From: Geosiphon pyriformis uo1
Taxonomy: Eukaryota > Fungi > Glomeromycota
Direction of reading: 5' to 3'
Assembly (NCBI GenBank): GCA_016748015.1
Contig: JAAOMT010000706.1
Coordinates: 536,850 to 600,849, forward strand
DNA length: 64,000 nt
Shown here one piece after another: positions 3,026-42,151 of the stretch. Below the pieces are notes generated by a model. That model searched no databases. It was not told the origin of the DNA and saw only the letters and a list, made by a program, of their open reading frames with translations. Within the stretch, counting starts at the first letter, position 1; each line of letters opens with the position of its first letter. A program made the position numbers and the translations under genes.

Positions 3026-3026
<1 letters not shown>

Positions 3027-17601: not shown

Positions 17602-17655
17602 AAAAAAGGGAAATTACTAATAATTAAGTTGGTTTGATTTGAGAGGGTTGTTCTG

Positions 17656-19080
17656 TTACTGGATGGTAAGTTTGGAGAGAGCATCAGCATTTTGATGATT
17701 AGCTCTTTTGTGATGTTGAATATCATAGTCAAATTCATCCAAGTGGAGTATCCAGTGAGTTATCCATTTGTGTTCTAGCCTCTTTTTGTTGCACAGCCAA
17801 ACCAAAGCTTGGTGATCTGTTACCACCAAAAACTTCACACCAAGAAGATACTTACTCCAGTAACTGGTGGATCATACTACTGCTAAGCATTCTTGTTCAG
17901 TGACTGAATAGTTCTGTTCTGCTAGGGAAAAAGTTCTACTGGCATAGGCTATGGCATGTTCTTTGTCATCTTCATCTTTCTGGGAGAGAACAGCACCAAG
18001 TTCAAAGCCAGATGCATCAGTGTAGAGGATAAAGGGTTGATTTAGATCAGGTTGCTTGAGAATGGGTTCTGTAATCAGTTTTTCCTTTAAAGTTTCAAAG
18101 GCTTTTTGCTGATGTGTTTCCCAATAGTAATTGACATTTTTCCTAAGTAGCTAATTGAGAGGAGAGGCGATTTTGGAGAAATCCTTGACAAATTTGTGAT
18201 AATAAGAGGCCAAACCAAGAAAAGAGCGTAGTTCATGAATGTTCATTGGTTGTTTAATGTTTTGGACTTTTTCAACTTTGGCTGGGTCAGGAAAGATTTC
18301 ATCTTTTGTGATAAGATGACCAAGGAACTGGGTGGATTGTCTTCCAAAGAAAGATTTGATTAGGTTGATCTTGAGACAAGCATTCCTGAGGAGGTCAAAA
18401 ACCTTTTGCAAATGTTCCAGATGTTCATCCCAGGTTTTTGAGTATACCATTATGTCATCCAAATAAACTAGAACAAAGTTCTCCTTGACTGATTTAAATA
18501 CTTTATCCATTAAGCATTAAAAGTTGGGAGGTGCGTTAGTGAGACCAAAAGGCATGATTGTGAATTCATAAGTGTCATACTTAATGATGAAGGCAGTTTT
18601 CTTTCTGCTTTCTGGATCCATCTCTACTTGCCAGAATCCAGCAGTTAAGTCAATGGTTGAGAAGAAAGCAGCATCTTTGAATTGGTCTAACATTACATCA
18701 ATCTTGGAAAGTGGGTACATGTCTCTTTCAGTGATGGCATTTAATTGGTGGTAGTCGACACAGAAGTGTAGTGTTTTACCTTTCTTGGATACCACTACAA
18801 CTGGGAAAGCCCATTTACTCTTGGTTTTTTGTATGAATTCAAGTTTTTTCATCTGGTTTATCTCTTTCTTGATAAACTCATCATTGTGCCAATTGGATTG
18901 ATAAGGCTTCAAATAAATGGGTCAAGTTTCTCTGATAGTGATAGTGTGTTGTATTACATGGGTACGTCCAGAGATATCACCTTCTTTGGAGATAACTGGG
19001 CTATTTCTAGCCAGCAAATTTTCAATGTCTATTTTTCTTTCTTCTGGAGAGGGTTTTTTTTGTTCTACAGCCAGTAATTG
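17656..19080 (-). pseudogene. Element A reverse transcriptase-RNase H
   Basis: FCVDYHQLN, MPFGLTNAP, VYLDDIMVYS, LYTDASG, TDHQAL, NADALS. Confidence 0.95.
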
Positions 19081-21887: not shown

Positions 21888-21916
21888 ACAATAGGAAACA
21901 AAATGGATTTTGACAA

Positions 21917-21933
21917 CCTCACAGGGAGCACTA
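21917..21933 (-). promoter_or_regulatory. Primer-binding site of element A
   Basis: Minus strand tagtgctccctgtgagg, 6 nt from the LTR; near-identical to element B PBS. Confidence 0.7.
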
Positions 21934-21939
21934 CTTTTA

Positions 21940-22276
21940 TGTTATGGGTTGAAGTAACAAGCTAACAGATAGCAAGAGAGAACAAGATTGTAGGGTGATA
22001 GAAATAATCAAAGGGAATTCAACTTCAATGAGCAAATTGAATAAGTATGGATTCAATGTGCAAGATCAATCTTATAAAATATCTCAGTCACTATTCTTTT
22101 CAAAGGTAACTGGGGAATCTGAAGATAGAGGAATAGTCTGTACTGTCAACAATTAATCACCACTGGTATAATTCTATGCTTCACGTCAGCACTCTTAGAA
22201 TTCAATATCAGGTATCAACTTGTACTTTTCAGTCACATTTATTCAAATAATCTTCAAATGCTACAATTATATACAT
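21940..22276 (-). repeat. Element A 5' LTR, left piece (interrupted by element B)
   Basis: tgttatgggttgaagtaacaagc matches 14890 onward. Confidence 0.92.
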
Positions 22277-23167
22277 TGTTACTCATAAAAATATAGGAAA
22301 TATATTAACATAATTATTAGCCAATCAGAAGTAAGCATAGTAAATGTGGAATTCCAGGATTCCTCTTAGGAATTGCAGGATTCCAGGAATTTCAGGATTT
22401 CCAACGAGGAATTGCAGAATTCCAGAATTCCAAGATTCCTCTCAAAGGAATCACAGGATTCCAGGAATTCTAAGATTTCTGTCGTGAAGAATCAAGGAAT
22501 TAAGGAATCTCAATTATGTATATATAGCAGTAGTGTTAAAACAGAAAAGACAGAATCGATATTACAGAATCCTTAGCCAAGAAACCAATCATTAAATAAA
22601 TAATTATTCCATATTGCAATTCACTATTTACTATCAACACTTCATGTTGATAGTAATTGCTACTTAACTATGCTGGAACAATAGCTCTTGATCATGGCTA
22701 TTGACGAGATACTAATGGACCAAATTGTCTTGGCTTATTTTCTTTATTTTCTTTATTTTTATTTTCTTTATTTTATTTCCTTTCTTTTTTTGATTTTGTT
22801 GTTGTATACTAATTGATTAAAAGATTAAGTGCTGAGTTATTGATGTCAAGGATAGCCTGGTAAAAGACCCAGAAATAAGGGTAAAATTTTATATATATTA
22901 TCAGATAGCTTACCAAAAGGGCATGACTGCCAGACTAAATCTGGCCACCACGCTGAGAAAAAAATTGGGAAAACCACTTGAGAATACAACCACTATCAAC
23001 CTTATTGAATCTCTGTCTATTATACAAAGAACTCCATAACAAAACCTTCAGATCAACCAAAACCTTCAGATATCATACCTTCCGCACATCATTCACAAAA
23101 GTAGCTTTTGAGCACCAAGTTATGGGTTTGTTATTCAATTCCACAACAGAAATAATCATCTGTAACA
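22277..23167 (+). repeat. Element B 5' LTR (internal ggaattccaggattcc repeats)
   Basis: tgttactcata...atctgtaaca; matches 40927-41820. Confidence 0.93.
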
Positions 23168-23169
23168 TT

Positions 23170-23186
23170 TGGTGCTTCCTGTAAGG
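23170..23186 (+). promoter_or_regulatory. Primer-binding site of element B
   Basis: tggtgcttcctgtaagg, 2 nt after the LTR end. Confidence 0.8.
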
Positions 23187-23199
23187 TATAATTCTACAG

Positions 23200-25990
23200 A
23201 GAACCAGCACCGACAACACCAAATCAAAAGTGGCAGAATCAGAAATTATAGGAGTAAACCATTTAGGATTCACAAAATCCTTATTTCAACACTATTGTCA
23301 ATACTTGGGATTAAACCACAATCATATATCCACCGAATCAGCCTTCAATTTCTATGTCAATGAAAAAATTTCTTCTTTATTAGGAACACCAGTGAATACT
23401 GAATCAGCAAGAAAAACTTTCTATAAGGAATTAATTCAAAACACCAACCTACCAACAAACCATAATTTTGCATCCATTATCACTGAGATCAACAAAGAAA
23501 TTGAACACTACACTCAACAAAGATATCCAATTACATATGTTAGTAAAGGCAAGGAAAAATTACAAACACCAGCAGTAATACCCAGAAAAATACAGCCACC
23601 TGCTTAGAAGAAAAACAGAGTTGAATTCCCAAGCAACCCACCCTATCACTATACACCTGGAAGCGCCATTAACATATCATCAACAGACACATTCTCATCA
23701 ACTGCAACATCAGCATTTAGACAATTCTCATTCCAAAGTAGACAAAGGAAAACAGAATTGTTAGAACCATATGGCGAATACTTTGAGGGATTTAATTTGT
23801 GATTATCAACCTCATCAGGACTTTGATCACCACTGCCTCTACCAGATTTCAGAATCTCTAATCCATGGGAAGCAGCAGAATCAGAAAAGAAGGAAGAAGA
23901 ATCAGAGTATCAAGAATTCACTTACCAGCACCCAATCACTGAAAACCCAGAAGTTAAAACCCCGAACCTTCAAACTTAGCAACAATTAGAAAATCCGGAA
24001 ATTGAAACTCCGAATATTTGAATGCCGCCAAATCAAAGAAATTAAAAACCCAAATTAATTAATCAGCAAAACTTACCTCCAGTAATCGTCATCAATCAAC
24101 TGCCGATTAATCCCATAGCCAAACCTATACAGCAGTCACTTCAGCTACCACCCCAACAGCCAAGACCACAACAACTGCTTCAACAGCCACCACAACCACC
24201 TAACTTAGATCCAATGGTCTACGCACCAATTGCAAAACTTGACAACTTTATGGGCGAAGAGAATAACGCTCAAGTATGGCTGAACGATATAGAAAAAGCC
24301 ATCGCAGTCAACAGATGGAATGATGCTCGAGCAATGTAAGCCATTCTCTACTTTCTCAAAGATACTACCAATTCATGGTACCAGAGCTTGATTAATAAAC
24401 CACAAGATTTTAATGCCTTTAAAGCAGAATTTCTAAGATACTTCAGCAACAATAACAGCATCAATCACCTAGTTAATGCATTCACCACCATAAAACAAGG
24501 AGAAACTAAAGCAGTCACCACTTACCTGAGATGCTTCCATCGAAACCTATGCCAAATTCAAACAATTGACACCAATTATTTCACAGCACTACAGATATTC
24601 AATCAGTTTATCTATGGTCTGTGCAGCAGCATCTTGCAACATGTACATCTGTTGCATCCAGGCACTCTTTAAGATGCAGTCACACGTGCCAGAGATTTTG
24701 AATCTGCGGAGTCAGAGGCTAACCACGCCCAAGCCATTAATCTAGTAATGAACGGATCATCTGAATTGGATTCCAAATTGGAGAAGTTCAGCAAATCAAT
24801 CAATAAGAGATTGGAAGGATACTTAGCTGACAATCACGCCATTTATCAGCCTCCACAACAACACAATAATCAAGGAAACTCTAATTGTGTCCAAAATCAA
24901 CCATGTTCATCTCCATCAACCAATCGACAGTGGCAACAGGAAATGCATATCTGCCACTATTGTGGTAAACAAAGACATATCCAAATTGACTGTCATCAGC
25001 GTTTAAATAACCAACAATCGGAAAATCAATATCGCAACTCTGATCGCCGGTTCCAAACTCCGAATCAGTACCCAAATCAAAACCCACCCGCTTACCTACT
25101 AGTGACGCAGTCATTAGTCTATCAGTCTCCAGTATATCAACCTCCAATTTATCAGCCGCAGCCACAAGTAATATATCAACCACAGCCACAAATAATCTAT
25201 CAACCCCAACAGATCCAAACACCACCTCAAAGCTTACCACCCAACAGAACTCAAAGACCGAGAATGACTCAACAGAGCTGGAGATCGGCGATAGTAGTCC
25301 ATCAACCAATCCCCAATTCTTCACAGCAACTATCTGGATTACGCCAGTGGAATTCGGGTACCAGTCAACTCCAGAACCCGAATTCCCAGAACTATTTAAG
25401 TCTTCTGATCACCCCAGAAGATGCTTCAACCAGTAACCTGGCATTTACCCAAAAACAACCACTCACCAGTAATATCCCACCCACTACTATCACCAAAGAC
25501 AAGTCATTGGCCACTATCTTCCCATTCGAATTTGAGAAAACAGCTACAATGCCATTATTTAGTGGAGCCATTCTTGAAGCCAAACCAATTACCACAATGT
25601 ATACTGATGCCAAAGTAGAAGGACAATTCATCAAATTAATTCTGGACAGCGGTTCTGCAGGCAGCATAATCACGAGACAACTCATGGATCAATTAGGTTG
25701 CCGAGTTAATCAAGCTGCCAGTGCCAGAATCATCACAGCCGATGGAGTGACCAAAACTCCAATCGGCGAAATTGACGACTTTCCTTTTGAAGTCAATGGC
25801 ATCATGACTTCCATTAAAGTTCTAGTGATGGAAGCCACTCAATACCAAGCTCTCGTTGGTAATAATTGGCTATCCAAAGTCAATGCAACATTAGACTGGA
25901 ACACTCAGAAACTTCAGCTAATGTATTAGGGCCAACACATACGTGTTCCGGCCATATATGGCCACTTTAAAACTCCTCCAAGAGAGAAAC
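23200..25990 (+). pseudogene. Element B gag and aspartic protease
   Basis: Helical N-domain; capsid-like FTTIKQGETKAVTTY; CHYCGKQRHIQIDC knuckle; LILDSGSAGSII. Confidence 0.88.
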
Positions 25991-27210
25991 TATTGATTGA
26001 ACTGGAGGAGGAGAAAGAAAAACCTACCTGGGAAGCCTACCAAGTGTCATGGATGGATGAAAAGCACAACGAACTACTGCCAATACTCTTCTGGGACGAC
26101 AGCAATAAGAGAAAAGGGAAACAGAAGGAAGAACTTACTTGGGAAACCGATGACCTGACATGGACTGACAACGATGAGAGTAAACTGACTTCAAGCTGGG
26201 AATGAGAAGAGGACAAAGAAAATAAAGGAAAAGGGAAAAAAAAAGAGACCACCCAAACCATCACCGCTTATAATAATACCTACACTATTCCACAACAATC
26301 TACCTATTGTCGACCTAAGCTTATATGCATCGATTGTGACAAGAAATTGTCATCAATGGGCGCATGCTGTAGTGACAATAAGGAATACCACACCACAACA
26401 AAATTCTACTGTCGTCTATGCTTATTCGAATGCTTCGGACGACCAAAAAGGCAAAGAAAATGGAATAACCAACCTTGTCTCGCTTGTGGGGAGACTCTGC
26501 TAGATGAAGGGATGTAAAACAACATCCCAGAATGTGGAGGAATGTGCGATGTATCGTGTCAATACACGATTCTAATAAGTGATTGGGTAAGGAAAGAAAC
26601 CCCAATAGAAGCAGTCTGGAAAAAAGCCATGCAGCAACTGGACAGTTGTCCACATGATGACGACAAAATTTGGCAAATGACACTTGCAAAAATCGAAGGG
26701 GCGACACCAGAAGAGATAAAAATGATCAAAGACAACCTCTCAGAACTTTTAGAGCTTGACTGGGACACAGAACCCATCATAAACCTCCTGGATCCGGAAC
26801 AGTTCCATGAACACTACCAAAAATTAGCACTCACAAGGAAAAAACAAGAACAACAATTAGAGCAGTTGAACGCTCGACTATGTCAACACTGCCTAATTCC
26901 CTGTGACTTCCAGTATTGTGAGGAGTGTGACCTCATTTACAATCCACCATCACACATGATCTACACAATCCCAGAAGAGGAAGAACCAATCAGCAGCTGT
27001 GTGTTAGAATCAGAATTGCCAGTCAATCAAGATTCAAACTCTGACAATAATGATGACAACAATGGTTCAAGCTCCATTCAAAATGGCAATGACAATGACA
27101 GTGATTCCAACTCAGATACAAACTCTGAGTTAAACTATGAACAATATATTGCACTACCAGATCTCTCCAAGGAACAAGAGTTGAAATGGTATAGTGACAA
27201 TGGGAAAGGT

Positions 27211-27606
27211 ATTATGCCAGAACGTGTGCATAATACTGATGCAGGGTTTGATCTGAGATATCCAGGAAAAAATGTCATCAAATTGGAACCACATTCACAC
27301 ACCTGCATTGATCTAAAAATAGCACTAGAAATTCCAGCAACAACAATGGTTTAATTAGCATCTAAGAGTAGTTTAGCAAAAAGAGGGATTAATATAAGAG
27401 GAGGAATAATTGATGCGGGATATGTAGGAAATATCATCACCATGCTACAAAATGACTCAGAAAAAGCCTATGTAATAGAGCCCAATAAAAAGATAGCACA
27501 GGCAATATTCCTGCCTCTGGTTAAAATAGCTCAGTTAGTATCAGTGAGAAAGCGGGAGGAATTAGGAATAACGGCAAGAGGAATACAGAGATTCAGATCC
27601 ACAGGT
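27211..27606 (+). pseudogene. dut: Element B dUTPase domain
   Basis: Five trimeric-dUTPase motifs: DAGFDLR, ASKSSLA, GIIDAGYVGNI, KIAQAIF, ARGIQRFRSTG (decayed RGxxGFGSTG); one stop. Confidence 0.93.
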
Positions 27607-28176
27607 AGAATAGATGTACCAGTTAACATGGCAGAGGAAGAAATTGTTGGCCAAGGAGAAATTATCTCAACTGGTCAAGCTATTTCTATTCCACTATATA
27701 GCCAGTACATGTTAGCAATAGAAAGGAAGGAAAAGGAGCAAGAACAGATTTTTGAAGTGGAAGCAATCCTTTGTGAATCAGGAGAGATTGGATTGATCAA
27801 TCTCCACATACCAGCCAAAAGCTATAGCAGCATAAAAATTCCCATCTACAACAACACTGGCAATGTTATCAACATACCAGAAGGAACCACCATCAGATAT
27901 CTAACCACAGAAATAGAAGACCAACCACCAAACCCCATTCCAGACTTTCCACAACTTTGTGGATATGTTGACATCACATCACAAACAATCTATGGATGAG
28001 ACAAATGTTATTTGCTCCAACCAGAACAATTAAAACAAATGAACATGGGAAACTTAGATCCACTCCAATGTATGCAGCTCAAGATGTTACTCAACAATTT
28101 CAATGACATCTTTGCCAGTGAAAATGAGTTTGGCCAAACTGACATCATCCAGCATTAGATCAAGACTAAAGATGCA

Positions 28177-29439
28177 ATGCCAATCAAACAAAGAGCATAC
28201 AGAGTACCACCAGCCAGCCACAAGATTATTTGTCAAGAAATAAACAGAATGCTTGACAATGGGCTAATTCAACCATCAATGAGTCCATGGTCATCATCAA
28301 TGGTACTCGTTCGTAAGAAAAATGGAAAAATCCAGTTTTGTGTAGACTACAGGAAACTCAATAGTGTAACTTGTGAAGACAGTTATCCAACTCCACGAAT
28401 ACAGGAATTATTCGATGCTTTTGGTGGGAACAAATGGTTCTCCACATTAGATTTAGACAGTGGTTACTGGCAAGTAGCCATGAATCCAGCTGACAAAGAG
28501 AAAACGGCATTTACTACTAGATAAGGGAATTTTGAATTTGAAGTGATGCCATTCGGCTTAACCAATGCCCCAGCAACTTTCCAATGGCTAATGGAAATCG
28601 TGTATACTGGCTTATTGTGGAAATCAGTAGTTGTATACTTGGATAACACCAATGTATTCTTAAAGACATTTGATAATCATCTTCATCATCTTTAACAAGT
28701 GTTTGAAAGACTAAAAAGAGCAGGACTGAAGTTAAATGCGACAAAGTGCTTCTTTGGCAAGACGGAACTCAAATTCTTGGGACACATAGTCGGCAAAGAC
28801 GGCATCAAAATGGATTTAGAGAAAATAGAGATAGTAAAGAACTTTCCAGTACTGACCAATATAACAGAACTGAAATCATTCTTGGGATTTGCCAGCTACT
28901 ATCGTCGTTTTATCAAGAACTTTTCCAAGATAGTAGAGCCACTCAATCAACTACAAAACAAAAATGCAAAATATGAATGGACAGAAAATCAACAAGAAGT
29001 TTTTGATATTCTGAGGAAAAAGCTTATCCAAGCTCCAGTGCTGATCTATTCAGATTACAGCAAACCATTCATCATTACCACCAATGCATCCAGCCAAGCA
29101 TTGAGAGCAGTATTATCTCAGAGAGAACCGAACGGCAGAGAACATCCAGTAACATATGCCAGCAGAGATTTAACACCAGCCGAAAAGAACTATGGAACAC
29201 CGGAACAAGAACACTTAGCAATATACTGGGCCATCATAAAATAGAAAGAATATTTGAGCCAGAAGTTTAAAATATACACAGATCACAAGGGATTAACATC
29301 ACTCCAAAAACAAGAATTTGGAGATAGAAGACAGTCAAGATGGAAAATGGCACTCGCACCATACAATTATACTATACATTACAAAAAAGGAAAAGACAAT
29401 AGAAATGCTGATGGTTTATCACGAATAAGACAAATCTAA
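28177..29439 (+). pseudogene. Element B reverse transcriptase-RNase H
   Basis: FCVDYRKLN, LDLDSGYWQ, MPFGLTNAP, YLDN (decayed YLDD), YASR, TDHKGL, NADGLSR. Confidence 0.95.
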
Positions 29440-29502
29440 AAACATTTCAACCCAAAAATATAATAAAACTAGAACAATACCAATGGAAAAATACAACAAA
29501 AA

Positions 29503-30885
29503 ATGAACATACAAAAATATCAACAATTGCAACATTATCTAAACACTCAACAGTTCAAGGAGAATTTATCTCATATGGAATGAAGGAGTATCAAACAACA
29601 ATCAAAATATTTTATCACTCACCAAAATATACTTTATCAGAAAAATAGAAGGAATCCAGATCAACCAATCAGAGTAATTATGGAGCCAGAAAAAGAGACA
29701 ATATTATTCAACATGCACTCAAATCCAACAGCAGAACATTTTCACAAAGAAGCAACCATGAAAAGAACTAGAAAAAGATACTATTGGCCATCAATGTACC
29801 CAGACATCATTCAATATGTTCAAAATTGTGATGCTTGTCAGTGAAGAGAAGGAACAAGACCCAGTGAACTATTAAGACCAATCAAAATGGGACAACCATT
29901 TGACCGTATGGGAATTGATTTAGTCGGACCATTAACAATTACCAGCAGAAACAACAGATATATTGCAGTAGCCATAGACTATCTTATTAAATGGCCAGAA
30001 GCCAAAGCAATTCAAAGAGTGGATGCAAAATTTGTTGCTGAATTCGTTCATTAAAATTTGATCTGTTAACACAGATGTCCAAAAGAACTACTATCAGATC
30101 AAAAAATCCACTTTGTAAACAGAACACTAACAGAATTAAGTCAAAGATTTGGGATTAAAAGACTATTGTCATTACTATACCATCCACAAACCAATGGATT
30201 AGTAGAAAAATTCAACAGAACGTTGTGTGAAGCAATAGTCAAGCTCAGCCAAGAAAACCAGAACAATTGGGATTTGTTCATACCATCAGTACTATTTGCT
30301 TATTGAACAATGAAACAAGATACTACATAAGCAACACCATTTGAATTAGTATATGGGAGAATAGCAACATTACCAGTAGAGAGAGAAATTAATACATATC
30401 CAGCTGAACCAATAACAGAGGAAAATTTTCAAGAAACATTGCTGAAAAAAACATATGACTTAATGGAAACATTGGAAAACAAACAAAGAAGAGCAGCTGA
30501 TAATATCCAAAAGTCACAAGAAACACAAAAAGAAAGACATGATAGTCAACTAACAGACAAACCAGTTGAATTCAAGATCGGAGACAAAGTATTACTACAT
30601 CGTACCAAAGCAGAAAAACAATGGAGTGGAAAATTTGACCCCAAATAGGATGGACTATTTCACATAGAAGAAATTCTAGGAAATGGAGCTTACAAATTAA
30701 GATTGGATAACAAAATTTTAACTAAAGCAGCACATGGAGATCAACTGAAACCATATCACAACATCATACTACCATCTACCAGTAATATTCCACAATTAGG
30801 AGTACAGAGAATACTGGTCCAACCAGATAAGATTCCATGAAATCTGGAACCAATCATTATTATCGACAACAACATGTTAAATTGA
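29503..30885 (+). pseudogene. Element B integrase
   Basis: ATG 29503 MNIQKYQQLQHYL; MHSNPTAEHF..CDAC; GIDLVGPL; YHPQTNGLVEKFN; FKIGDKVLL; ends EPIIIID. Confidence 0.9.
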
Positions 30886-30920
30886 TCCATCAAAAGAATA
30901 TATAAAGACATAGTAGATGC

Positions 30921-31774
30921 TGTTACGGGATGGTTTTCTTGTTATATTTAATTGCTAATATCCCGCTTTAATTGCAATCAGTCTTTCGTGAGTTCCTCAA
31001 TTCTATTTGTGTGATAATGTCACTGTTACACTGAAGGCTTTCTTTTTACTGTTGCGATGTAAGTTATTCTTTAATTCTTAATTGTTGTGTGTGTTTATGT
31101 ACTCCTTCTCAGAGGCTGAACTGAAATCTACCCACTGTTTGGGGTCTTCTCTGAGGCTATCCTTGCAATTGCCTGATGTGTTTCTCTAATCTAGAAACAC
31201 AGAATGTTAATGGTCTTTAGCNNNNNNNNNNNNNNNNNNNNAATTAATAACAACGTGAATAATCTTGATCAAGGATTATTCTTCCAAGGAATTCAGTTGA
31301 TGAATGATAGTTTCATTCAATAAATAATACAAGTAAGTTTCTTAATACTTTGGGTTGTGATAGTTCTATTTTAAATATTCTTTTTCATTTCTTTTTGATT
31401 TTTAAAGGTTTCTTGGGATATTTAATTTGAAAGTATGATTTAAAGTGGAGTTTGTTGGATAAAATTGGATCTGTTGTTTGATAAGTTATGATTTTTATTA
31501 CTTGATTGATTATTTCTCATATTAAAACTACTGTATATATACATGTTTGTAGTTCTATGAGAAAATACTTTCTTTTTGATATTTCAACCTGGTGTTTGCT
31601 GCTATCACCAGTTGGTGTTGGCTGCTATTGTGAACTGGTGCTTGCCACTATCGCGAGATGGTGTTTGCTACTATGTTAATCATTACTTTTCTAAGATTAT
31701 TACTGTGCTATATTATGATTGAATAGTTTGTATTATTTTTATGATTCTTTTTGCTAAATTCCTAAACCGTAACA
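30921..31774 (-). repeat. Element C 3' LTR
   Basis: tgttacggga...ccgtaaca; contains an N gap. Confidence 0.9.
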
Positions 31775-31787
31775 TTATCCCCTCCTT

Positions 31788-32540
31788 TCAAAATTGAGCT
31801 CCATCGAAATCGAAGTTAATTTCTTTATTAAATTCTAAGTTACTATAGTGGTTCAATACTGTGTTATTAATTTGTTGTTGTAATTCTTGAAATTGCGAGT
31901 TGGTAAGTCGTCCAATACTGTTGGTTGTTATTATGTTCATGGTTGGGTCCAACAATAATTTATAACAGTTTTCAAATGCTTTGAAAATTCTGTAAACTGT
32001 TTTTGAATGGAATGTAGTGTTGGTTTTTCCAATGAAAGGTTCTAATAGTTGGATAGTTGTTTTGTCAAACATTCTAGTTGAGTCTTTTGAGTATAATGTT
32101 TGTATGTTCAAGTGCTTTCCTAGTTGATAATAACAGTAATTAATTGGGAATTTCGTTTTCAAGTTGCTAAATGTGTCTGGTGTTAATTCACTTATTTTTA
32201 TTTCTTCCATTATTAATGTATTGCCCAATGCTATCTCTAATTTTTCAATAACTTTGCTAATAAATTTGTTGTTATATTTGGCAATATTATATGGTTCGAA
32301 ATTATGTTCTTTTCTTGTTTTTGGATTTTCTATTGTTCTTTTTATGTATGTTATTTTGGAGCTATTAACTGTGATTTCTAGATCGGATTTTAATTGTTAT
32401 AAGCTTTTAACTAATTGTTGAGTTATATTGTTGATGTTTTCTGGAATAAGTATCATTGTTTTAATTTTGACTGTTATTTTGGAATCTTTTGCATGCATTT
32501 TTATGGTTGTTAAATCATTTTTGCTGTGATCTAAGATTAA
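31788..32540 (-). pseudogene. Element C accessory ORF after integrase (unknown function)
   Basis: Same frame as the integrase C-terminus; FPINYCYYQLGKHLNIQTLY...GRLTNSQFQELQ...DFDGAQF. Confidence 0.8.
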
Positions 32541-33881
32541 TTATCTTTTCAAATAATATTCAATTAAAACTATTGGTTCTAAATCTTGTGGAATTTGTTC
32601 TAGTAGAATTAAAGATAATTGTGTTCCAATTCTGGGTGTTTTTGTTGTTATTACTGGTTTACTGTAATAGAATTTCAGCCGGTTACCATGTGCTGCTTTT
32701 CTTAATATTTTATCATCTAGTCTTAGCTTGTATGCTCTATTTCCAAGTATTTTGTGAATATAAAATAGTCCATCCCACTTGTGATCAAATTTTCCACTCC
32801 ACTGTTTTTCCATTTTTGTACGATGCAACAATACTTTATCTCCAATTTTGTAGCTAATTATATTATCTGGTAACTGGTTATTATGTCTCACTTTTTGTTG
32901 TCCTTGTGATTGTTCAATATTTTGTGCTGCTTTTCTTCTTTTGTTTTCTAAAGTTCCCATTAATTCGTATGTTCTTCTAAGTAGTGTTTCCTGGAATGTT
33001 GCTTCTGTGATAGTGTCACTTGGATAAGTTGGAATAGTAAGTTCAATGGGTAATGTGGCTTTTCTTCCATAAACTAGTTCAAACAGTGTGAATTGTGTAG
33101 TATCTTGTTTTACTGTTCTATATGCTAATAGTACTGCTGGTATGAATAAATCTCATTCTTTTTCATGTTCATTACTAATTTTCGCCAGTGATTCGCATAA
33201 TGTGCGATTAAATCTTTCAACTAATCCATTTGTTTGAGGGTGGTATGGTGATGACAGTGGTTGCTTGATTCCAAATTTTTGGCTAAGTTCTTTTAAGGTG
33301 CTGTTTACGAAATGTGTGCCTTGATCTGATAGCAATTCTTGTGGACATCCATGTCGGCAAATTAAGTCTTCATGTACGAATTGAGCTACCGAAATAGCAT
33401 CAGCTGTTTTAATAGTTCTAGCTTCTGGCCATTTGGTGAGATAATCCATGGCTACTGCAATATAACGGTTGTTTCTTGTTATTATTAGTAAGGGTCCAAC
33501 TAAATCAATTCCGATTCTGTCAAATAGCTGTCCAACTTTTATTGGTCTTAATAATTCCGTTGTTTTTGCTCCTCCTCTTTGTTGGCATAGGTCACAATTT
33601 TTTATGTATTGGATTATGTCTGAACTCATTTTTGGCCAATAGTAATGGCTATTTGCACGTTGGATGGTTGCTGTTTTTCCAAAGTGGCCTGAATGAATAT
33701 CTGAGTGCATGTTAAATAAGATAGTTTCTTTTTCATCCGTGGTTATAACTCTTAATGGATTATCTGGATTTTGTCGATTCCGGTAATAAAGTATGTAATT
33801 TTGGATGAAATAGTGTTTTGCTAATTTTTGGAGCTTAATTAGCTCTTTTACTGGCATTTCTTCATCTATTTGTAGTGTTTC
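32541..33881 (-). pseudogene. Element C integrase
   Basis: MHSDIHSGHFG..CDLCQ; GIDLVGPL; SDQGTHF; PYHPQTNGLVERFN; KWDGLF. Confidence 0.93.
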
Positions 33882-33921
33882 NNNNNNNNNNNNNNNNNNN
33901 NNNNNNNNNNNNNNNNNNNNN

Positions 33922-35102
33922 GTGTCAAAGTGAACACAACTCCAGACTACTGCTAAGCATTCAAGTTCATGTGCTGCGTAGTTTTGTTCTGCCGTACTGA
34001 GACTTCTGCTAGCATAAGCGATTACACGTTCTCTTCCATTATTATCTTTTTGTGACAGAATGGCTCCAAGTCCAGTTCTAGAGGCATCTGTGGCCAAAAT
34101 GAATTTCTTGTTGAAATTCAGATAGATCATTATTGGTGATTCAATGAGCTTTTGTCTAAGGTACTCAAAAGCTTTTTGTTGTGCTTCAGTCTATTCAAAC
34201 TTCACATTTTTAGATAGTAGGTAATTAAGGGGTTTGGCAATGTTTGAAAAGTTTTCTACAAAGCAGTGGTAGTAAGATGCGAGTCCTAAAAAGCTTCTAA
34301 TTTCTGAAACGTTTCGAGGTACTAGAAAATTTTTCACTTTGTCTATTTTTGATGGATCTGGTTTTATTCCATCTTTTCCAACTACATGTCCTAAAAATGC
34401 TAGCTCATTTTTCTCAAAGAAACATTTTTCTAGATTTAGTTTAAGTCCAGCGTGTTTCAGTCTCTCAAAAACTTGTTGTAAATGTTGGAGATGATCTGTG
34501 AATTTTGACGAGAAAACATTTGTATCATCCAAGTAGACAACAACGGATTGCCACAGGATTTCGGAGTAAATTACGTCCATTAGTCTTTGGAATGTCACGG
34601 GAGCGTTTGTTAATCCAAATGGCATTACATTGAACTCATAATTGCCATTTTGTGTTGTGAATACTGTTTTATGTCTGTCCTTTGGGTCTATTTCCACTTG
34701 CCAGTACTCACTGGTCAAGTCCAGTGTAGAAAACCATTTTGCTCCTCCAAAAACGTCAAAGATTTCATCAATTAACGGTATTGGATATGAGTCTTTGGTT
34801 GTTTTGCTGTTTAGTTTGCGATAGTCAACACAAAATCTAATTTTTCTGTTCTTTTTCCTTACTAAAACAACTGGTGAGGACCATGGGCTCATTGATGGTT
34901 GTATTATTCCTTTTTCCAACATGCTTTGGACTTCTTCTCTGATAAAATTATGCTCCATTGGTGGGACACGGTAAGTGCATTGTTTTTCAGGTCTGGCGTT
35001 TTCAGTGGGGATTTGGTATTAAACCAAGTTGGTTCTTCCAAATTCGCCATTTCTTGAAAATATATCAGAGTATTTTAAAATTAATGCTTTTAATTGTCGC
35101 TG
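33922..35102 (-). pseudogene. Element C reverse transcriptase-RNase H (3' end in gap)
   Basis: RFCVDYRKLN, MPFGLTNAP, VYLDDT, ATDASRTGLGAIL, YASR. Confidence 0.95.
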
Positions 35103-38100
35103 TTAGTCAGAATCCATTGTTCCAATGTTTAATTTGGCCAATTTTTCTGGTGTAAATTGATAGCATTCTACCGGTTGTTGCCAATTTATTGAAGTGAATT
35201 CACAGTAGAGGGCAATTTTTGGGAAATTTAGAATTTCTTGTGGTGTTGACGTGTTTTCTAGCTCCGTTCCGAGGTATCCAATGATGGTATCTTCCAGAAT
35301 GTAGACAGGTTCTTCTGTGGTGTTTGTGATAGGAATTTTTATCCATTGAGCTTTATTAGCTGGAATAAAAAGGTTAGTAAGTCCTATGAGAAACTGTTGG
35401 CAAGTTTCTGGGTAGGGCTCAAATATTAGGTCTTTTTTTTTAATTGTCTTTTTTATTCTTATTTCTGATTTTCCATATGGTAGGAGTGTGATGGACTGCT
35501 CATTTTTAATTACTTCGCCTTTTTCCTCTATTGTTTCAGCAAAATTCGCTTCAATTCCTTTTTCTGTTGATCCGAAACCAAAAGTTCCTCTCGTTGTTTG
35601 TGACAATTCCTCATGATTTTCCACTGGCATGAATTTCCCAATTTTTACCAATGGTAGGAAAATTNNNNNNNNNNNNNNNNNNNNTTTTATTCTTATTTCT
35701 GATTTTCCATATGGTAGGAGTGTGATGGACTGCTCATTTTTAATTACTTCGCCTTTTTCCTCTATTGTTTCAGCAAAATTCGCTTCAATTCCTTTTTCTG
35801 TTGATCCGAAACCAAAAGTTCCTCTCGTTGTTTGTGACAATTCCTCATGATTTTCCACTGGCATGAATTTCCCAATTTTTACCAATGGTAGGAAAATTGC
35901 TTGTGCAATCTTTTCCTTAGATTCAATGGTATAAGGCTTTTCTGAATTGTTCTGTAGCAAAACCATCAAATTTCCAGTGTATCCAGAGTCAATTACTCCT
36001 TCTTGAACGCTTATTCCTTTTTTCGCGAGGCTTGATCGTGACGCCATTTGAACCATTATTCCTGGCGGAATTTCAACTGCTATTTTTAGGTCAATTTTGG
36101 TGATGCTCCTGGGTGGTAACGTTGTGGATTGGTCTTCTAGATAACATAGATCGAATCTGGCGTCAGTTGGATGGGCTCTTTCGGGTATTATTCCTAAGTG
36201 CCCGTTGTCGAAGTATCGGATGTCGGTCACCTGTTCTATGTCGGTATAGGCTACAAATTTTTCTGACTTGGGACCGTCAAGTGAGTTTTGTTGATTTATT
36301 GATTGATTTTGAGACTGCTGATTCTCAATTTCCATTTTTCTTTCTAAGTTCCTTTTGTCTTGACACTCTTCACAGCACTGATTTTGGCACGGGATGAGAC
36401 AGTTTTCGCAGAGGTAAGTGTTGATTTGGGCGAGGTATTGTTCTTGCTCTTGTCGAGTGGGGCATAGTTGTTGGTAGTAGTCCTGGAATTCGTCCACTGG
36501 GTCGAACATGTTGTAGCTGGCGACTTCGTTGGCTACTTCAGCTGACTCTTTCCAACATCGTATTTCTTCGGTGGTTCCTCCTCTTACTTTGACTTGTGCG
36601 GTGTTGTACAACTTGTCCTCATCATGTGGGTAGTGCTGTAGTCTTTTTAACACTCTGTTGAACGCTGCTTTGAATGGCATTCCTCCTCTTACCCAGTCAC
36701 AGATGAGGATCGTGTATTGGCAAGTTGCATCACACGTTCCTCCTCTGCCTGGTAAGTCATTCCAGTCGCACCCTCTTGGTAACGGTTCTCCACAAGCAAG
36801 GCATGGTTCCTCGTCCCATTTTCCGTGTCTTTCTGGGTAACCGTATTTTTCTTTGTTACAATGGTTACAATAGTAGTGGGTGGGATTTCTTGGGTCTTTG
36901 TCTGGTGCGCTGCACGCAGTCATAGACGAGAGTTTTTTCTTGCAAACTGAGCATTCTAGCTTTGGTCTGCGTCGCTGGTGGTTTCTTTGTGAACTTACCT
37001 GGTTCCATTCGGATCTTTCTTTGCTGGTCCACATTGGTACGGCTGGTAGTCCTGTTCTTTGGTTATCAGCCCAAGAGAGCTGATAGGTTTCAATGGCTGG
37101 TAGTGCTAGATTTTCCTCAAATTCGAAGATAGGTTTTTGGTTGGCGCTGGGTTTTTGGAAGTGGCCACAGGTGGCTGGAATTTTGGCCTGGTGGCCATTA
37201 TAATTGATCAGAAGCTCTTGGGTGGTCCAGTCTAGGGTGGCGTTGGCTTTTGTTAGCCAGTCATTCTCTACTAACGCTTGATATTGTGTAGTGTCCATTA
37301 CTAATACTTTTGTAAGTATTACTATGCCGTTAATTTCGAAAGGGAATGAGTTGATTTCGCCATAAGGCAGCTTTGTACTTCCATCGGCTGTTATGATTTG
37401 GGACGTCGCGGCATGATCAACTTTGAAACCCAGTTGGTTTATTAGTTGAAGCATTACGATGCTTCCAGTGGATCCGCTGTCTAAGATAAGTTTGATTGGG
37501 GTATTGTTTACAATGGCTTCTGTATACATAGCAGTGATTGGGCGTTTTTCGTCCAATGCTGCTCCACTGAACATAGCCTCGTTTTCCTCTAATTCAAAAG
37601 GAAAAATAGCTGCGAGGCTGCTATCTTTGGTGGCAACTGCTGGTGGTATTGTCTGGCTCAATTTGGAGGAATTCTTGGTTCTGTTTATGTTTCTACCATC
37701 ATTGTTTCCGATGATCAGGTTTTCCGGTATATTAAGGTAAGTTTGTTGATAATTTTGGTAGTTTGGATTGGTTTGCTGATTGGTTCCAGCGCGGTTTGGA
37801 TTCCTCTGGACCAACGCGTTCTGGTTCCACATAGGCTGATTTCGGGCCTCGGGACGCCAATTCGGGTTGGCTATCATGGGCTGTTGCTGGTAAGCTCCTT
37901 GATTTTGATACGTGGTGGGATATTGGCATGGTATTGGCATGTACTGGTTTCTGGGCATTTGGGGTGGCACGTAGTAATTCTTTTCGCGTGTTTCCTGCAT
38001 CATTTGCATTCGACATTGACTAATCAAATGTCCTACGTGTTTGCAAAAATGGCAGGTGCATGTTTCTGTTCTGAATTCCTGGCATGACGAGCAATTATTT

Positions 38101-39143
38101 CAACTGTCGCTGACTTCCTGGCTGCGTCTTTGGGGTGGTTGGTATGTATTTTTTCTCGGATCCGGGATGAGGTAACTTTCTATTTTCTTAGAAAGTTCCT
38201 CCCCTAATTGCGTTACTCTTTTCTCTAATGTTTCTGTCTTATTTTCCTCCATTACCATGTTAACCATTTGACTATGGTTAGCTTCTTTCNNNNNNNNNNN
38301 NNNNNNNNNNNNNNNNNNNNNNNNNNNNNNNNNNNNNNNCTGTGCCTTTCAGGAAGAAAGGTAATGTTTGAATTGCTCTTTGGTCGTTCCAGTTATTTGT
38401 CTGGATGGCTTTTTGTGCTTCTCTGAGCCATGTGTACACGTCCATTTCTTCTTCCTCTCCTGAGAAATCTGTTAGTCTTGCAATGTATGGTGTGGTCATT
38501 TCGTTGCTGTTTTCTGCTGGTGGGTTTATTGGTCTAAGAGGAGGTGGGATGATATTTCCTTGAGCGTTCCTAAAGGTGGCTTCTCTTATATCTGGTTCTT
38601 CCTCTTGATCACGAGTTTCTTGGTTTCTGGACTGGCTGCTTGTTCCAGTGACTGGTCTTGTGATTGTTTTTTTGCTGGTCTCTTTTTCGGATTCTGATTT
38701 AGACTCCTCTTCACGGTTTTCAAACCCCGTTCTAAATTTTGGCTGAAAAAGAGGGTTTTGGAATAGTGATGAATATCCTCCTGTAATTGGTATGTCNNNN
38801 NNNNNNNNNNNNNNNNNNNNNNNNNNNNNNNNNNNNNNNNNNNNNNTATTGGAAAATTTTTGTTGGCGTATTGCTCAATTTCTCGATGGATTTTGACAAT
38901 AGTTGCGGCTATTACTGCTACTTCTTTTGTAGTGTATTGTGATAATTTTCTATACAATCTAAGTTTTGCGTCGTGTGGTTCTTCTTCCTTTTCTATATGA
39001 TAATTTATTCTGGCATTGATATAATAAGTGAGGGCAGATTCTGCTGGACAACACCCTTCTGGTAATCCAAGATCACTCTGATTTTGTGTGTAAATAGCAC
39101 AGCAGAATTCAAGAACAGTAAGATTAGGAGTTTTTGTCACCAC
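35103..39143 (-). pseudogene. Element C gag-protease-Cys-rich domain-dUTPase polyprotein region
   Basis: 974-aa open frame with LILDSGSTGS, repeated CxxC pairs and dUTPase motifs; continues in frame into RT across decayed stops. Confidence 0.9.
35795..36195 (-). pseudogene. dut: Element C dUTPase domain
   Basis: PERAHPTDARFDL, ASRSSLA, GVIDSGYTGNL, EKIAQAIF, TRGTFGFGST. Confidence 0.95.
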
Positions 39144-39225
39144 TTTTGTCTTTTCCTTTTTAGCAATGAATTATTGCTAATTATTATTTCCTTTTTGATT
39201 TTTTTTCTTCGTAGGGTTTACCAAA

Positions 39226-39630
39226 TGTTACGGGATGGTTTTCTTGTTATATTTAATTGCTGATATCCCGCTTTAATTGCAATCAGTCTTTCGTGAGTTC
39301 CTCAATTCTATTTGTGTGATAATGTCATTGTTACACTGAAGGCTTTCTTTTTACTGTTGCGATGTAAGTTATTCTTTAATTTTTGATTGTTGTGTGTGTT
39401 TATGTACTCCTTCTCAGAGGCTGAACTGAAATCTACCCACTGTATGGGGNNNNNNNNNNNNNNNNNNNNNNNNNNNNNNNNNNNNNNNNNNNNNNNNNNG
39501 CCACTATCGCGAGATGGTGTTTGCTACTATGTTAATCATTACCTTTCTAAGATTATTACTGTGCTATATTATGATTGAATAGTTTGTATTATTTTTATGA
39601 TTCTTTTTGCTAAATTCTTAAACCATAACA
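39226..39630 (-). repeat. Element C 5' LTR (gapped)
   Basis: tgttacggga...ccataaca; PBS tggtaaaccctacg at 39210-39223 (-). Confidence 0.9.
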
Positions 39631-39634
39631 ACGC

Positions 39635-40283
39635 GACAGGAAATATCAGAAAAATAGAAATTACAGACAACATTCACTCACTAGCACAACAACTCTTTCA
39701 ATTAATCCAACACCAGGAAATGGAGATTACAATCAATCAACAAACCATTAGATATCAAGATACTAGAAAAACATTTCAACTCAGAACACAGAAGAAAACT
39801 GAAAATACTGTGGACAAAATCATGGCGAAAGTAAAATTAGCAATAAAAAAATTGACAAAAGAGTCACTATACTAAGAGTTGACTAAAGAAACTTGGAATT
39901 GGTAGATACAACAATTTCCACAAAACTATTGTTATTTTTACTTGGGACAACATGTAAATATCCAGAATCTATATACGGATAAAACAAAGTGATTATTTGA
40001 CAAAAGAATACTACAACAATTAGAACATTTTGTGGGAAAGAACAACTTATTCACACAAGCCTGAGCCATATACCGAATACACACAGCATTTCAGGATAAA
40101 CCAGAAATATTGCTCAACAGAGCAATGGATATGGTGACTAGTAATCAATTGGGAAAAATTACCAATGCTCAATTTGAAGAATTACAGACCCAAATAACAC
40201 AAGTAATTCTTGAAAATGAAATCCAGGAAATACTTCAAGAGAGAGAATTACATGAGTTAGATTTCGACGGAGCTCAATATTAA
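39635..40283 (+). pseudogene. Element B accessory ORF after integrase (5' part at 30874-30920, split by element C)
   Basis: Rejoins as YKDIVDA-TGNIRK; FPQNYCYFYLGQHVNIQNLY...GKITNAQFEELQ...DFDGAQY is homologous to element C ORF 31788-32228. Confidence 0.8.
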
Positions 40284-40297
40284 AAAGGAGGGAATAA

Positions 40298-40926
40298 TGT
40301 TACTTATAGAAATATAAGAAATATATTAGCATAATTATTAGTCAATCAGAAGTAAGTGTAGTAAATGTGGAATTCCAGGATTCCTCTTAAGAATTGCAGA
40401 ATTCCAGGAATTTCAGGATTCCCAATGAGGAATTGCAGAATTCTAGAATTCCAGGATTCCTCTCAAAGGAATTGCAGGATTCCAGAAATTCTAGGATTCC
40501 TGTCATGAAGAATCGAGGAATTGAGAAATCTCAATTATGTATATATAGCAATAGTGTTAGAAACAGAAAAGACAGAATCGATACCACAGAATCCTTAGCC
40601 AAAAAACCAATCATCAAATAAATAATTATTCCATATTGCAATTCACTATTCACTATCAACACTTTATGTTGATAATAATTGCTACTTAACCATGCTGGAA
40701 CAATAGCTCTTGATTATGGCTATTAACAGGATACTAACTTATAAACATCTTGGCTTAATTTTCTTTATCTTCTCTTTATTTTTTTATTTTTATTTTTTTG
40801 TTTTGTTTACTAATTGATTAAGAATTAAGTGCTGAATTATTGACATCAAGAATTGCCTGGTAAAAAACCCCTGCAAGTGAGTAAAACACATAAAAAATTA
40901 TGGATTATTTACCAGAAGATTGCCAG
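40298..40926 (+). repeat. Element B 3' LTR, first partial/chimeric copy
   Basis: Starts tgttacttata after the PPT; diverges from the B LTR after about 40737; ends at gccag. Confidence 0.8.
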
Positions 40927-41820
40927 TGTTACTCATAGAAATATTGGGAATATATATTAGCATAGTTATTAGCCAATCAGAAGTAGACGTTGTAAAATGT
41001 GGAATTCCAGGATTCCTCTCAGGAATTGCAGAATTCCAGGAATTTCAGGATTCCCAATGAGGAATTGCAGAATTCTAGAATTCCAGGATTCCTCTCAAAG
41101 GAATTGCAGGATTCCAGAAATTCTAGGATTCCTGTCATGAAGAATCGAGGAATTGAGAAATCTCAATTATGTATATATAGCAATAGTGTTAGAAACAGAA
41201 AAGACAGAATCGATACCACAGAATCCTTAGCCAAAAAACCAATCATCAAATAAATAATTATTCCATATTGCAATTCACTATTCACTATCAACACTTTATG
41301 TTGATAATAATTGCTACTTAACCATGCTGGAACAATAGCTCTTGATCATGGCTATTAATGAGATACTAATGGACCAAATTGTCTTGGCTTATTTTCTTTA
41401 TTTTTTTATTTTTATTTTTTTTATTTTATTTCCTTTCTTTCTTTGATTTTGTTGTTGTATACTAATTGATTAAAAGATTAAGCACTGAGTTATTGACATC
41501 AAGAATAGCCTGGTAAAAGACCTAAAAATAAGGGTAGGATTTTATATATATTATCAGATAGCTTACCAGAAAGGCACGACTGCCAGACTAAATCTGGCCA
41601 CCACATTAAAAAAGAAATTGGGAAAACCACTTGAGGATACAACCACTATCAACCTTATTGAATCTCTGTTCATTATACAAAGAACTCCATAACAAAACCT
41701 TCAGATCAACCAAAACCTTCAGATATCATACCTTCTACACATCATCCACAAAAGTAGTTTTTGAACACCAAGTTATGGATTTGTTATTCAATTTCACAAC
41801 AGAAATAATCATCTGTAACA
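40927..41820 (+). repeat. Element B 3' LTR, second full-length copy
   Basis: tgttactcata...atctgtaaca; variant first 70 bp, B-type remainder. Confidence 0.85.
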
Positions 41821-42151
41821 ATGTCAGAAAAAGGCCAACAAGTAATCTTTTATCCTAAAATGTTCGGATACTTAAAGGTAAGGAAAAGAAAATTAGTGAT
41901 AAGAGAGTAATTGAGATGAAAGTTGTTATTTTTATTTATTTGATTCTTGTCTGAGAGATGATTTTCTACAGCTAAGAAACTCATCACTTATATAGCTATT
42001 GAAAGTGGTCAACGACCAAGTCAATAATCAGGTCAATGGTCAGGTCATTGATCAGGTCAATAATCACTATCTAAAAATAGAGTGGCAAATTATGACATCA
42101 GTGGCTAATACATGTAATAACTAATAAAAATTATGGGTTTCAACTGTAACA
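41821..42151 (-). repeat. Element A 5' LTR, right piece
   Basis: aaaaggccaacaagtaatcttttatcct...caactgtaaca matches about 15233-15605. Confidence 0.92.

What the first reader, a model, noticed from the sequence alone, without database searches (positions are those of the whole stretch)
22277..41820. Fungal Gypsy elements with a retrovirus-like accessory set: dUTPase inside pol between protease and RT
Seen: two divergent elements (B, dUTPase at 27211-27606; C, at 35795-36195) carry all five trimeric dUTPase motifs in frame between PR and RT, while the related element A lacks the domain. Known: dUTPases are accessory genes of betaretroviruses, non-primate lentiviruses and ERV-L, and are rare in Ty3/Gypsy retrotransposons. 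Inference: with the Cys-rich domain, separate integrase ORF and ORF3 reported below, this defines a distinct lineage. dUTPase may limit uracil in cDNA in a host with low dNTP pools or deamination-based defence.
Basis: partly seen in the sequence, partly recalled or inferred. Interest (0 to 1): 0.85.

Follow-up and report, generated by a model that had tools for sequence, protein, structure and literature searches.

The report
Fungal Gypsy retrotransposons carrying a dUTPase
Two dead, nested jumping genes in this fungal DNA carry the remains of a dUTPase between protease and reverse transcriptase, which likely kept uracil out of their DNA copies; that layout is already published for other fungi and animals, and what looks undescribed is the wider family, whose integrase is a separate gene.

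Summary
Real, but the headline is known. Elements B and C (C inside B, B inside A's LTR) each hold a dUTPase between protease and RT; A has none. Both copies are damaged: B has an in-frame stop and broken motif 5, C broken motifs 1 and 3. The host is almost surely Geosiphon pyriformis. PR-dUTPase-RT is in print for Postia, rotifer and planarian Gypsy elements. New here: an intact metagenomic relative (L003) has Gag-PR-Cys-dUTPase-RT-RH in one frame, then a separate integrase gene and ORF3. The dUTPase is under purifying selection between families (B/C dN/dS 0.24) and 20 element dUTPases form one branch, so one capture is likely. The dUTPase does not define the lineage: the split integrase and an ORF3 also occur in A, and 55 of 67 scoreable relatives lack dUTPase. 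No env; 'retrovirus-like' overstates. RT could not be tested against GyDB/Repbase. This scan has reported both traits before on other DNA.

The parts
22277..23167 (+). Element B 5' LTR (TGTTAC...TGTAACA), followed by a TGG-type primer-binding site near 23170-23186
   Evidence: 92% identical to 40927-41820; ends and PBS read
24340..24672 (+). B gag capsid core (part), same frame as pol
   Evidence: PF03732 E 1.6e-9, PF19259; frame
25585..25968 (+). B aspartic protease
   Evidence: PF13975 E 1.1e-9; B/C dN/dS 0.10
26353..26943 (+). B Cys-rich domain (approximate limits), one stop
   Evidence: phmmer with C's domain E 3e-54; B/C dN/dS 0.19
27202..27606 (+). B dUTPase, dead: stop at 27352, motifs 2 and 5 altered
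28105..29439 (+). B RT and RNase H, ending in a stop at 29437-29439 four codons after the RNase H end motif
29503..30885 (+). B integrase as its own ORF, ATG 63 nt after the RNase H stop; several stops; no chromodomain seen
   Evidence: B/C dN/dS 0.19
39631..40283 (+). B ORF3 (main part; its start lies before 30921 and is cut off by the insertion of C)
   Evidence: 36% identical to C ORF3 over 223 aa, E 4e-44
40298..41820 (+). B 3' end: polypurine tract just before 40298, a partial LTR (40298-40926) and a full LTR (40927-41820)
39226..39630 (-). Element C 5' LTR, collapsed over an N gap (39450-39499)
   Evidence: 98% identical to the ends of 30921-31774
37158..37541 (-). C aspartic protease, downstream of gag (about 38874-37600, two N gaps)
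   Evidence: PF08284, PF13650
36354..36968 (-). C Cys-rich domain, 205 aa, stop-free; predicted to fold (pLDDT 81), no clear structural match
35793..36200 (-). C dUTPase, open but with motifs 1 and 3 altered
35451..35898 (.). 214-bp exact duplication around a 20-N gap: assembly artefact that repeats the dUTPase C-terminus
33922..35045 (-). C RT and most of RNase H; the RNase H/integrase junction is lost in the N gap 33882-33921
32541..33881 (-). C integrase (H2C2, core, SH3-like end), no chromodomain
   Evidence: PF17921, PF00665, weak PF24626
31788..32540 (-). C ORF3, unknown function, ends at the polypurine tract
   Evidence: no Pfam hit, only a sub-threshold NCBIfam row
30921..31774 (-). 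C 3' LTR; 4-bp target duplication ATGC (30917-30920) / ACGC (39631-39634)
14890..22276 (-). Element A (oldest, no dUTPase): 3' LTR 14890-15605, ORF3, separate integrase, RT-RH, PR, gag, and the first part of its 5' LTR (21940-22276)
41821..42151 (-). Rest of A's 5' LTR, displaced by the insertion of B; A's target duplication ATAT/ATAT

Best explanation
B and C are dead Ty3/Gypsy LTR retrotransposons with a decayed dUTPase between protease and reverse transcriptase, which an ancestor likely captured once and which likely hydrolysed dUTP inside the particle so that RT put less uracil into the cDNA. Shown: the nesting, the domain order, the lesions, purifying selection between families, and an intact relative (L003) with Gag-PR-Cys-dUTPase-RT-RH in one frame, integrase in its own ORF and an ORF3. 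Inferred from retroviral dUTPases: the polyprotein is packaged, the protease frees the dUTPase, three copies assemble, and dUTP is turned into dUMP plus pyrophosphate at the site of reverse transcription; being in the Gag frame it would be made one per Gag. Inferred from trees: the dUTPase bearers are one sub-lineage (or a few lineages sharing one captured gene) of a larger non-chromoviral clade, probably of Mucoromycota, that is marked by the separate integrase, not by the dUTPase. The enzyme is a helpful accessory, not a requirement: A multiplied in the same genome without it.
For: Domain calls. dUTPase fold for the L003 domain: best rows all dUTPases, Z 12.6, rmsd 4.1, 116 aligned. All five motifs intact in L003, L002, P0133, P0137, P0138, P0144. 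dN/dS for dUTPase: B/C 0.24; 12 other between-family pairs 0.12-0.29, two with saturated dS; for comparison B/C integrase 0.19, protease 0.10, RT 0.08. 20 element dUTPases form one side of a branch, SH-aLRT 97, in a 57-row tree with phage, prokaryote, one lentiviral and one copia-type row. RT-RH monophyly of 8 dUTPase bearers is not rejected (AU p 0.38). B, C, P0015, L003 and P0137 share the C-terminal part of the Cys-rich domain. In the 102-row RT clade none has an integrase core fused; 76 end within 40 aa of RNase H. Role of retroviral dUTPases: PMC4531489 passages.
Against: No activity was measured. dS is near saturation, so the ratios are rough; the one close pair (L001/L005) gives 0.62 on 9 changes, and 3 of 9 variants in the L003-family dUTPase are non-synonymous against 2 of 12 elsewhere in that ORF. 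The deep RT tree is a star: the 102-row clade has 94 in FastTree but is open in the careful 41-row tree, and FastTree needs 5 changes of the dUTPase label. P0142 has a dUTPase outside the element branch, so at least one more capture or fast divergence. The dUTPase tree holds no eukaryotic cellular dUTPase and none of the published fungal or rotifer element dUTPases. One Rhizophagus clarus gene model in the clade (P0398) has the integrase N-terminus joined on. One search saw only proteins of 485-1544 aa.
Confidence: 0.75

Rival explanations
1. These are simply more members of an already described dUTPase-bearing fungal Gypsy clade (PosPlaTy3-5, Phanerochaete elements, Tmt1) or of a Repbase family, so nothing about the lineage is new.
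For: Same PR-dUTPase-RT order in print. G. pyriformis LTR expansion (41.2% of the genome) is published. GyDB and Repbase could not be searched.
Against: The paper's dUTPase tree is of chromodomain-bearing elements; C and L003 have no chromodomain; A, B and L003 have a separate integrase ORF, which the sections read do not describe; the three Tanacetum rows, taken here as plant chromoviruses by inference, lie far from B/C.
Confidence: 0.12
2. The dUTPase (with the Cys-rich domain) is a cassette that moved between RT sub-lineages by recombination, so the bearers are not one lineage.
For: Bearers sit in four unresolved spots of the RT tree, five with P0142; the PR-RT interval varies from about 175 to 820 aa in the clade; P0133/P0292 have their small Cys motif after the dUTPase, not before.
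Against: AU test does not reject one clade (p 0.38); the groups within the dUTPase tree (B+C+P0015; L003+P0137; P0133+P0292; P0138+P0283) match those of the RT tree.
Confidence: 0.25
3. The domain is kept for a non-catalytic job (trimer scaffold or spacer in the polyprotein) or is nearly neutral cargo.
For: 55 of 67 scoreable relatives and element A lack it; P0283 and P0291 deviate in motifs 1 and 5; a truncated, inactive dUTPase is conserved in BIV.
Against: The catalytic Asp of motif 3 and the C-terminal P-loop-like motif 5 are kept across families that are only 50-60% identical.
Confidence: 0.1
4. The dUTPase counters a deamination-based host defence.
For: The elements show heavy transition decay: 62 of 64 differences between B's LTRs are transitions, and CpG observed/expected falls with nesting age, C 0.60, B 0.37, A 0.07, flanks 0.81-0.87.
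Against: That decay is seen between LTRs of one insertion, so it came after integration, and it hits A, B and C alike. A dUTPase acts on the free nucleotide and cannot remove uracil or thymine made by deamination in DNA (established knowledge).
Confidence: 0.05

Closest known systems
PosPlaTy3-5 of Postia placenta; Phanerochaete chrysosporium elements; Tmt1 of Tuber melanosporum (PMC2864245 passages and section 5; the 2008 papers known only through these citations)
   Same: Fungal Ty3/Gypsy elements with a dUTPase; PosPlaTy3-5 has it between PR and RT; independent captures were already proposed.
   Different: Described with chromodomain-bearing elements; here no chromodomain, a separate integrase ORF, a 200-aa Cys-rich domain, an ORF3 and a Glomeromycotina host. 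Direct RT comparison not possible.
Rotifer Juno, Vesta, TelKA (PMC5408684 passages and section 3.1) and planarian Burro (PMC6431247 passage)
   Same: dUTPase between PR and RT; Juno also has a Zn knuckle in that interval; rotifer elements carry an ORF3.
   Different: Animal hosts; Pol includes integrase; ORF3s are env, GDSL or DEDDy types, none matched here.
Retroviral dUTPases: betaretroviruses, non-primate lentiviruses (PMC4531489 passages)
   Same: Five-motif trimeric dUTPase inside a retroelement polyprotein; the model for the function.
   Different: Other positions (NC-fused or between RT and IN); 36% identity to the one lentiviral row and no grouping with it; no env here.
YPYY-integrase Gypsy groups (Athila/Tat-related, Gypsy-1_RO of Rhizopus, DGLT-A) and Ginger1 transposases (PMC2836005 passages)
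   Same: Integrase N-terminus here resembles the YPYY motif by eye; TGTNR ends; 4-bp target duplications as in Ginger1.
   Different: These are LTR retrotransposons with RT; the resemblance was not tested by alignment or tree.

Membership tests
Ty3/Gypsy (Metaviridae) LTR retrotransposon | Two LTRs with TG...CA ends, PBS, PPT, target duplication | tested here: met
   TSD exact for A, 3 of 4 for C, 2 of 4 for B (read as CpG decay, an inference)
Ty3/Gypsy (Metaviridae) LTR retrotransposon | Order gag, PR, RT, RH, IN with Gypsy-type domains | tested here: met
   Pfam
Ty3/Gypsy (Metaviridae) LTR retrotransposon | Integrase cut from the Pol polyprotein (usual, not strictly defining) | tested here: not met
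   Stop after RNase H and own ATG in A, B, L003; hidden by an N gap in C
Homotrimeric dUTPase | Five conserved motifs | tested here: met
   Intact in L003, L002, P0133, P0137, P0138, P0144; damaged in B and C
Homotrimeric dUTPase | dUTPase beta fold | tested here: met
   Model of L003 domain pLDDT 75; Z 12.6, rmsd 4.1, 116 aligned to 8y1q
Homotrimeric dUTPase | Trimer and dUTP hydrolysis | not testable with these tools
   needs an assay; no complex prediction was run
Chromoviruses (incl. the described dUTPase-bearing basidiomycete elements) | Chromodomain after integrase | tested here: not met
   No PF00385 in C or L003; B's integrase C-terminus was read but not scanned
Chromoviruses (incl. 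the described dUTPase-bearing basidiomycete elements) | RT groups with PosPlaTy3-5, Tmt1 or Phanerochaete elements | not testable with these tools
   No GyDB/Repbase; the paper's DOC supplements are not held
Retroviridae or env-bearing errantiviruses | env gene with membrane anchor after pol | tested here: not met
   ORF3s: no Pfam hit; best 19-residue hydropathy 0.27-1.05 for B, C, L003 and 1.65 for A
YPYY-integrase Gypsy / Ginger1-related | YPYY motif before H2C2 and integrase phylogeny | tested here: inconclusive
   N-termini look alike by eye; no reference sequences to align

The most novel reading that the evidence does not exclude
B and C belong to an undescribed, widespread Gypsy clade of early-diverging fungi that makes Gag to RNase H as one protein and integrase from its own gene, and one sub-lineage of it captured, independently of all published cases, a dUTPase together with a multi-zinc Cys-rich domain of unknown fold; the stand-alone YPYY-like integrase with 4-bp targets could be the living link between Gypsy elements and Ginger1 DNA transposons.
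Probability: 0.45. Interest if true: 0.62.

Novelty: new variant of a known kind. Interest (0 to 1): 0.38.

Why it matters
The dUTPase alone adds one more independent capture to a list begun in 2008. Its value is as a natural comparison: elements with and without the enzyme multiplied in the same fungal genome, and an intact element (L003) exists, so the open question of what a dUTPase does for a non-infectious retrotransposon can be tested. The larger point is the clade: an integrase made apart from Pol must be translated and packaged by a route not in the textbook Ty3 cycle. It also explains many 'hypothetical' Geosiphon gene models with dUTPase domains as transposon debris, which matters for gene-family comparisons in mycorrhizal fungi.

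Tried and rejected
No whole genome was held, so copy number and dN/dS across Geosiphon copies could not be computed from DNA. Viral collection: no locus for P0015 or for the dUTPase motif pattern. Donor of the dUTPase: best viral matches 35-46% and prokaryotic 34-45% identical; PDB hits from bacteria, poxvirus, yeast, chlorovirus and lentiviruses score alike; no donor can be named. Cys-rich domain: no Pfam or NCBIfam family, ESM Atlas best 0.77, Foldseek no match at E 0.001 in PDB or BFVD, VIA-align best Z 5.3, with the first 45 residues weakly like LIM/ZZ/GATA zinc fingers at Z about 4; this does not show a new fold. L003 ORF3: Atlas first hit 0.93 to Mucoromycota hypothetical proteins (24 of 30 hits in the unnamed set); a closterovirus coat protein row at 0.93 with 153 shared features is a lead only and was not followed. 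ORF3s of A and L003 are not detectably related to B/C ORF3 (best E 0.077-0.16). No RNA holder listed for L003. The PMSF tree of 127 rows did not finish; FastTree and LG+G4 trees were used. A frameshift between dUTPase and RT, noted by another agent for another family, is not seen here: B, C and L003 keep one frame. Literature: no paper held with Geosiphon + dUTPase or Glomeromycotina + dUTPase + gypsy; searches listed none that, from title and abstract start, describes this clade; the two Geosiphon genome papers are not held, and I recall, unverified, that the 2021 one lists dUTPase among enriched Pfam domains. The DAM-retrotransposon preprint had nothing relevant.
Full report
Anatomy. Self-comparison shows three nested LTR retrotransposons. 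A (minus strand) runs from 14890 to 42151; B (plus, 22277-41820) sits in A's 5' LTR; C (minus, 30921-39630) sits in B just after the start of its ORF3. LTR identity rises inward (A 78-88%, B 92%, C 98%) and CpG observed/expected falls outward (C 0.60, B 0.37, A 0.07; flanks 0.81 and 0.87), both as the nesting predicts. Ends are TGTTA...TAACA. Target duplications are 4 bp: ATAT/ATAT for A, ATGC/ACGC for C, ACAT/ATGT for B; the mismatches fit CpG decay (inference).

The observation. Pfam finds the dUTPase in C (E 3.6e-25) and in the open half of B's domain (E 2.6e-12), after the protease and before RT, in one frame; C passes the TIGR00576 cut-off. A has none. Neither copy is intact: B has a stop at 27352, KSS in motif 2 and RFRS in motif 5; C has ARFD in motif 1 and a Glu for the first Gly before motif 3. 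B has 9 stops from 24673 to the end of RNase H, C has 3. The repeat of C's dUTPase tail at 35451-35664 is an exact duplication beside an N gap, so an assembly artefact.

Host. Of the 120 listed hits (271 in all) to C's PR-Cys-dUTPase stretch, 119 are Geosiphon pyriformis gene models, the best at 86%. The host is therefore G. pyriformis or a close relative (inference). LTR elements cover 41.2% of that genome (PMC11952901, passage). Of 74 dUTPase domains among fetched Geosiphon-type proteins only 2 keep all five motifs; some of the 74 are unnamed, and 4 of 4 such proteins checked were G. pyriformis.

Intact relatives. Protein searches gave open PR/dUTPase/RT proteins from metagenomes. A motif scan of metagenome contigs gave 5 loci. 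L003 is a whole element assembled as a circle: one 2018-codon frame with Gag (CCHC), protease, a Cys-rich stretch, dUTPase, RT and RNase H, ending 6 residues after the RNase H motif; integrase in another frame with an ATG overlapping the end and a second ATG about 35 nt after the stop; then a 198-codon ORF3. It is held by freshwater-sediment and soil metagenomes. ORF3 looks like Mucoromycota hypothetical proteins, a lead on the host only.

Selection. Nei-Gojobori dN/dS for the dUTPase is 0.24 between B and C; of 15 pairs among six sequences, 12 give 0.12-0.29, two are saturated and the one close pair gives 0.62 on 9 changes. B/C values for other domains are 0.08 (RT), 0.10 (PR), 0.19 (IN), 0.19 (Cys-rich). 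dS is near saturation, so these are rough, but the domain was clearly constrained while the families diverged. Within the L003 family 3 of 9 dUTPase variants change a residue, against 2 of 12 in the rest of the stretch. The model of the L003 domain has the dUTPase fold.

Lineage. In a FastTree of 127 RT-RH rows (1 of 128 dropped for length), a 102-row clade (support 94) holds A, B, C, L003 and one Rhizophagus clarus model. None has an integrase core fused; 76 end within 40 aa of RNase H, 19 carry a longer tail without integrase likeness, 7 could not be scored, and the Rhizophagus model has the integrase N-terminus joined. Caveats: the search saw only 485-1544-aa proteins, some proteins may end at contig ends, and the clade is open in the careful 41-row tree, though the AU test does not reject it (p 0.72). 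dUTPase is present in 12, absent in 55 and unknown in 35 of the 102; my searches enriched for bearers, and among rows alone it is 5, 54 and 35. B and C are sisters (100/99) and A lies elsewhere. The bearers form four supported groups with unresolved relations; holding 8 of them together is not rejected (AU p 0.38, 4 rows left out). In the dUTPase tree (57 rows: 20 element rows including 6 of the 74 Geosiphon-type domains, 34 of 95 viral and prokaryotic matches after thinning, P0142, one lentiviral and one copia-type row) the 20 form one branch at SH-aLRT 97, and P0142 lies outside. One capture is the simplest reading. The donor is untested: no eukaryotic cellular dUTPase was available, and PDB hits from all kingdoms score alike.

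Other cargo. The 205-aa Cys-rich domain had 263 hits among 50%-identity representatives; the listed ones are nearly all Geosiphon-like, with three divergent ENA proteins. Its C-terminal part is shared with L003 and P0137. It is predicted to fold (pLDDT 81, pTM 0.56) with no clear match. A and several dUTPase-less relatives have a different small Cys knuckle between PR and RT, which L003 also has. ORF3 of B and C are 36% identical; no env features.

How it likely works. Shown: architecture, selection, fold. Inferred from retroviral dUTPases (PMC4531489, passages): the domain is packaged with Gag, released by the protease, forms trimers and lowers dUTP where cDNA is made. Untested: activity, processing, how integrase is translated. 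The deamination idea fails on chemistry, and the transition decay here (62 of 64 LTR differences in B) came after insertion.

What is known. PosPlaTy3-5 has the dUTPase between PR and RT, and Phanerochaete and Tuber elements were reported in 2008 (PMC2864245, passages and section 5; its DOC supplements, which hold the structures and the dUTPase tree, were not available). Rotifer Juno, Vesta and TelKA (PMC5408684, passages and section 3.1) and planarian Burro (PMC6431247, passage) have the same order. PMC2774666 mentions the chromovirus case (passage), and dUTPase is enriched with retroviral domains in Entomophthora muscae (preprint passage). Searches found no paper on this in Geosiphon or Glomeromycotina, but the Geosiphon genome papers are not held. 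Earlier AI notes of this scan report the dUTPase and the split integrase on other DNA; I had reached that reading before looking and do not count them as support.

Verdict. The feature is real and was functional, the position is published, and the novelty lies in the host clade and the split integrase rather than in the dUTPase. New variant of a known kind; interest 0.38.

Noticed in passing
window 22277-23167 vs 40927-41820; 14890-15223 vs 21940-22270: LTR differences are almost all transitions (62 of 64 in B, 36 of 38 in A). CpG sites are hit hardest (15 changed, 6 unchanged in B) but CpA, CpC and CpT contexts also change (47 sites), hinting at non-CpG methylation or a RIP-like process.
   Followed up: partly
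window 29483-29506: In B a 7-codon mini-ORF in the spacer after RNase H ends in a TGA that overlaps the integrase ATG (ATGA); could be chance.
   Followed up: no
L003 773-763 (minus) and 728: Two candidate integrase starts: an ATG overlapping the end of the RNase H frame and one about 35 nt after the stop.
   Followed up: partly
P0352: A relative in the same RT clade has a NUDIX (MutT-like) domain in front of the protease, another nucleotide-cleaning type of enzyme.
   Followed up: no
P0311, P0312, P0331, P0335 and others: A sub-clade (support 97) carries a 60-400 aa tail after RNase H with no Pfam or integrase match.
   Followed up: no
P0143: A copia-type polyprotein from an ENA assembly has a dUTPase between integrase and RT.
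   Followed up: no
window 23170-23186 and 21917-21933: A and B share nearly the same primer-binding site while C's differs; the tRNAs were not identified.
   Followed up: no
window 40298-40926: Partial tandem copy of B's 3' LTR, 99% identical over 300 nt to the full copy: assembly artefact or recent duplication.
   Followed up: no
window 10978-11370 (-), 54740-55330 (+), 52124-53137 (-): Host-like genes outside the nest: Lipase_3 exon, a DPBB_1 domain, and an ORF with a 42-bp tandem repeat.
   Followed up: no
window 1001-6000, 43001-47000, 63001-64000: Very AT-rich stretches (10-19% GC) with no long ORFs.
   Followed up: no
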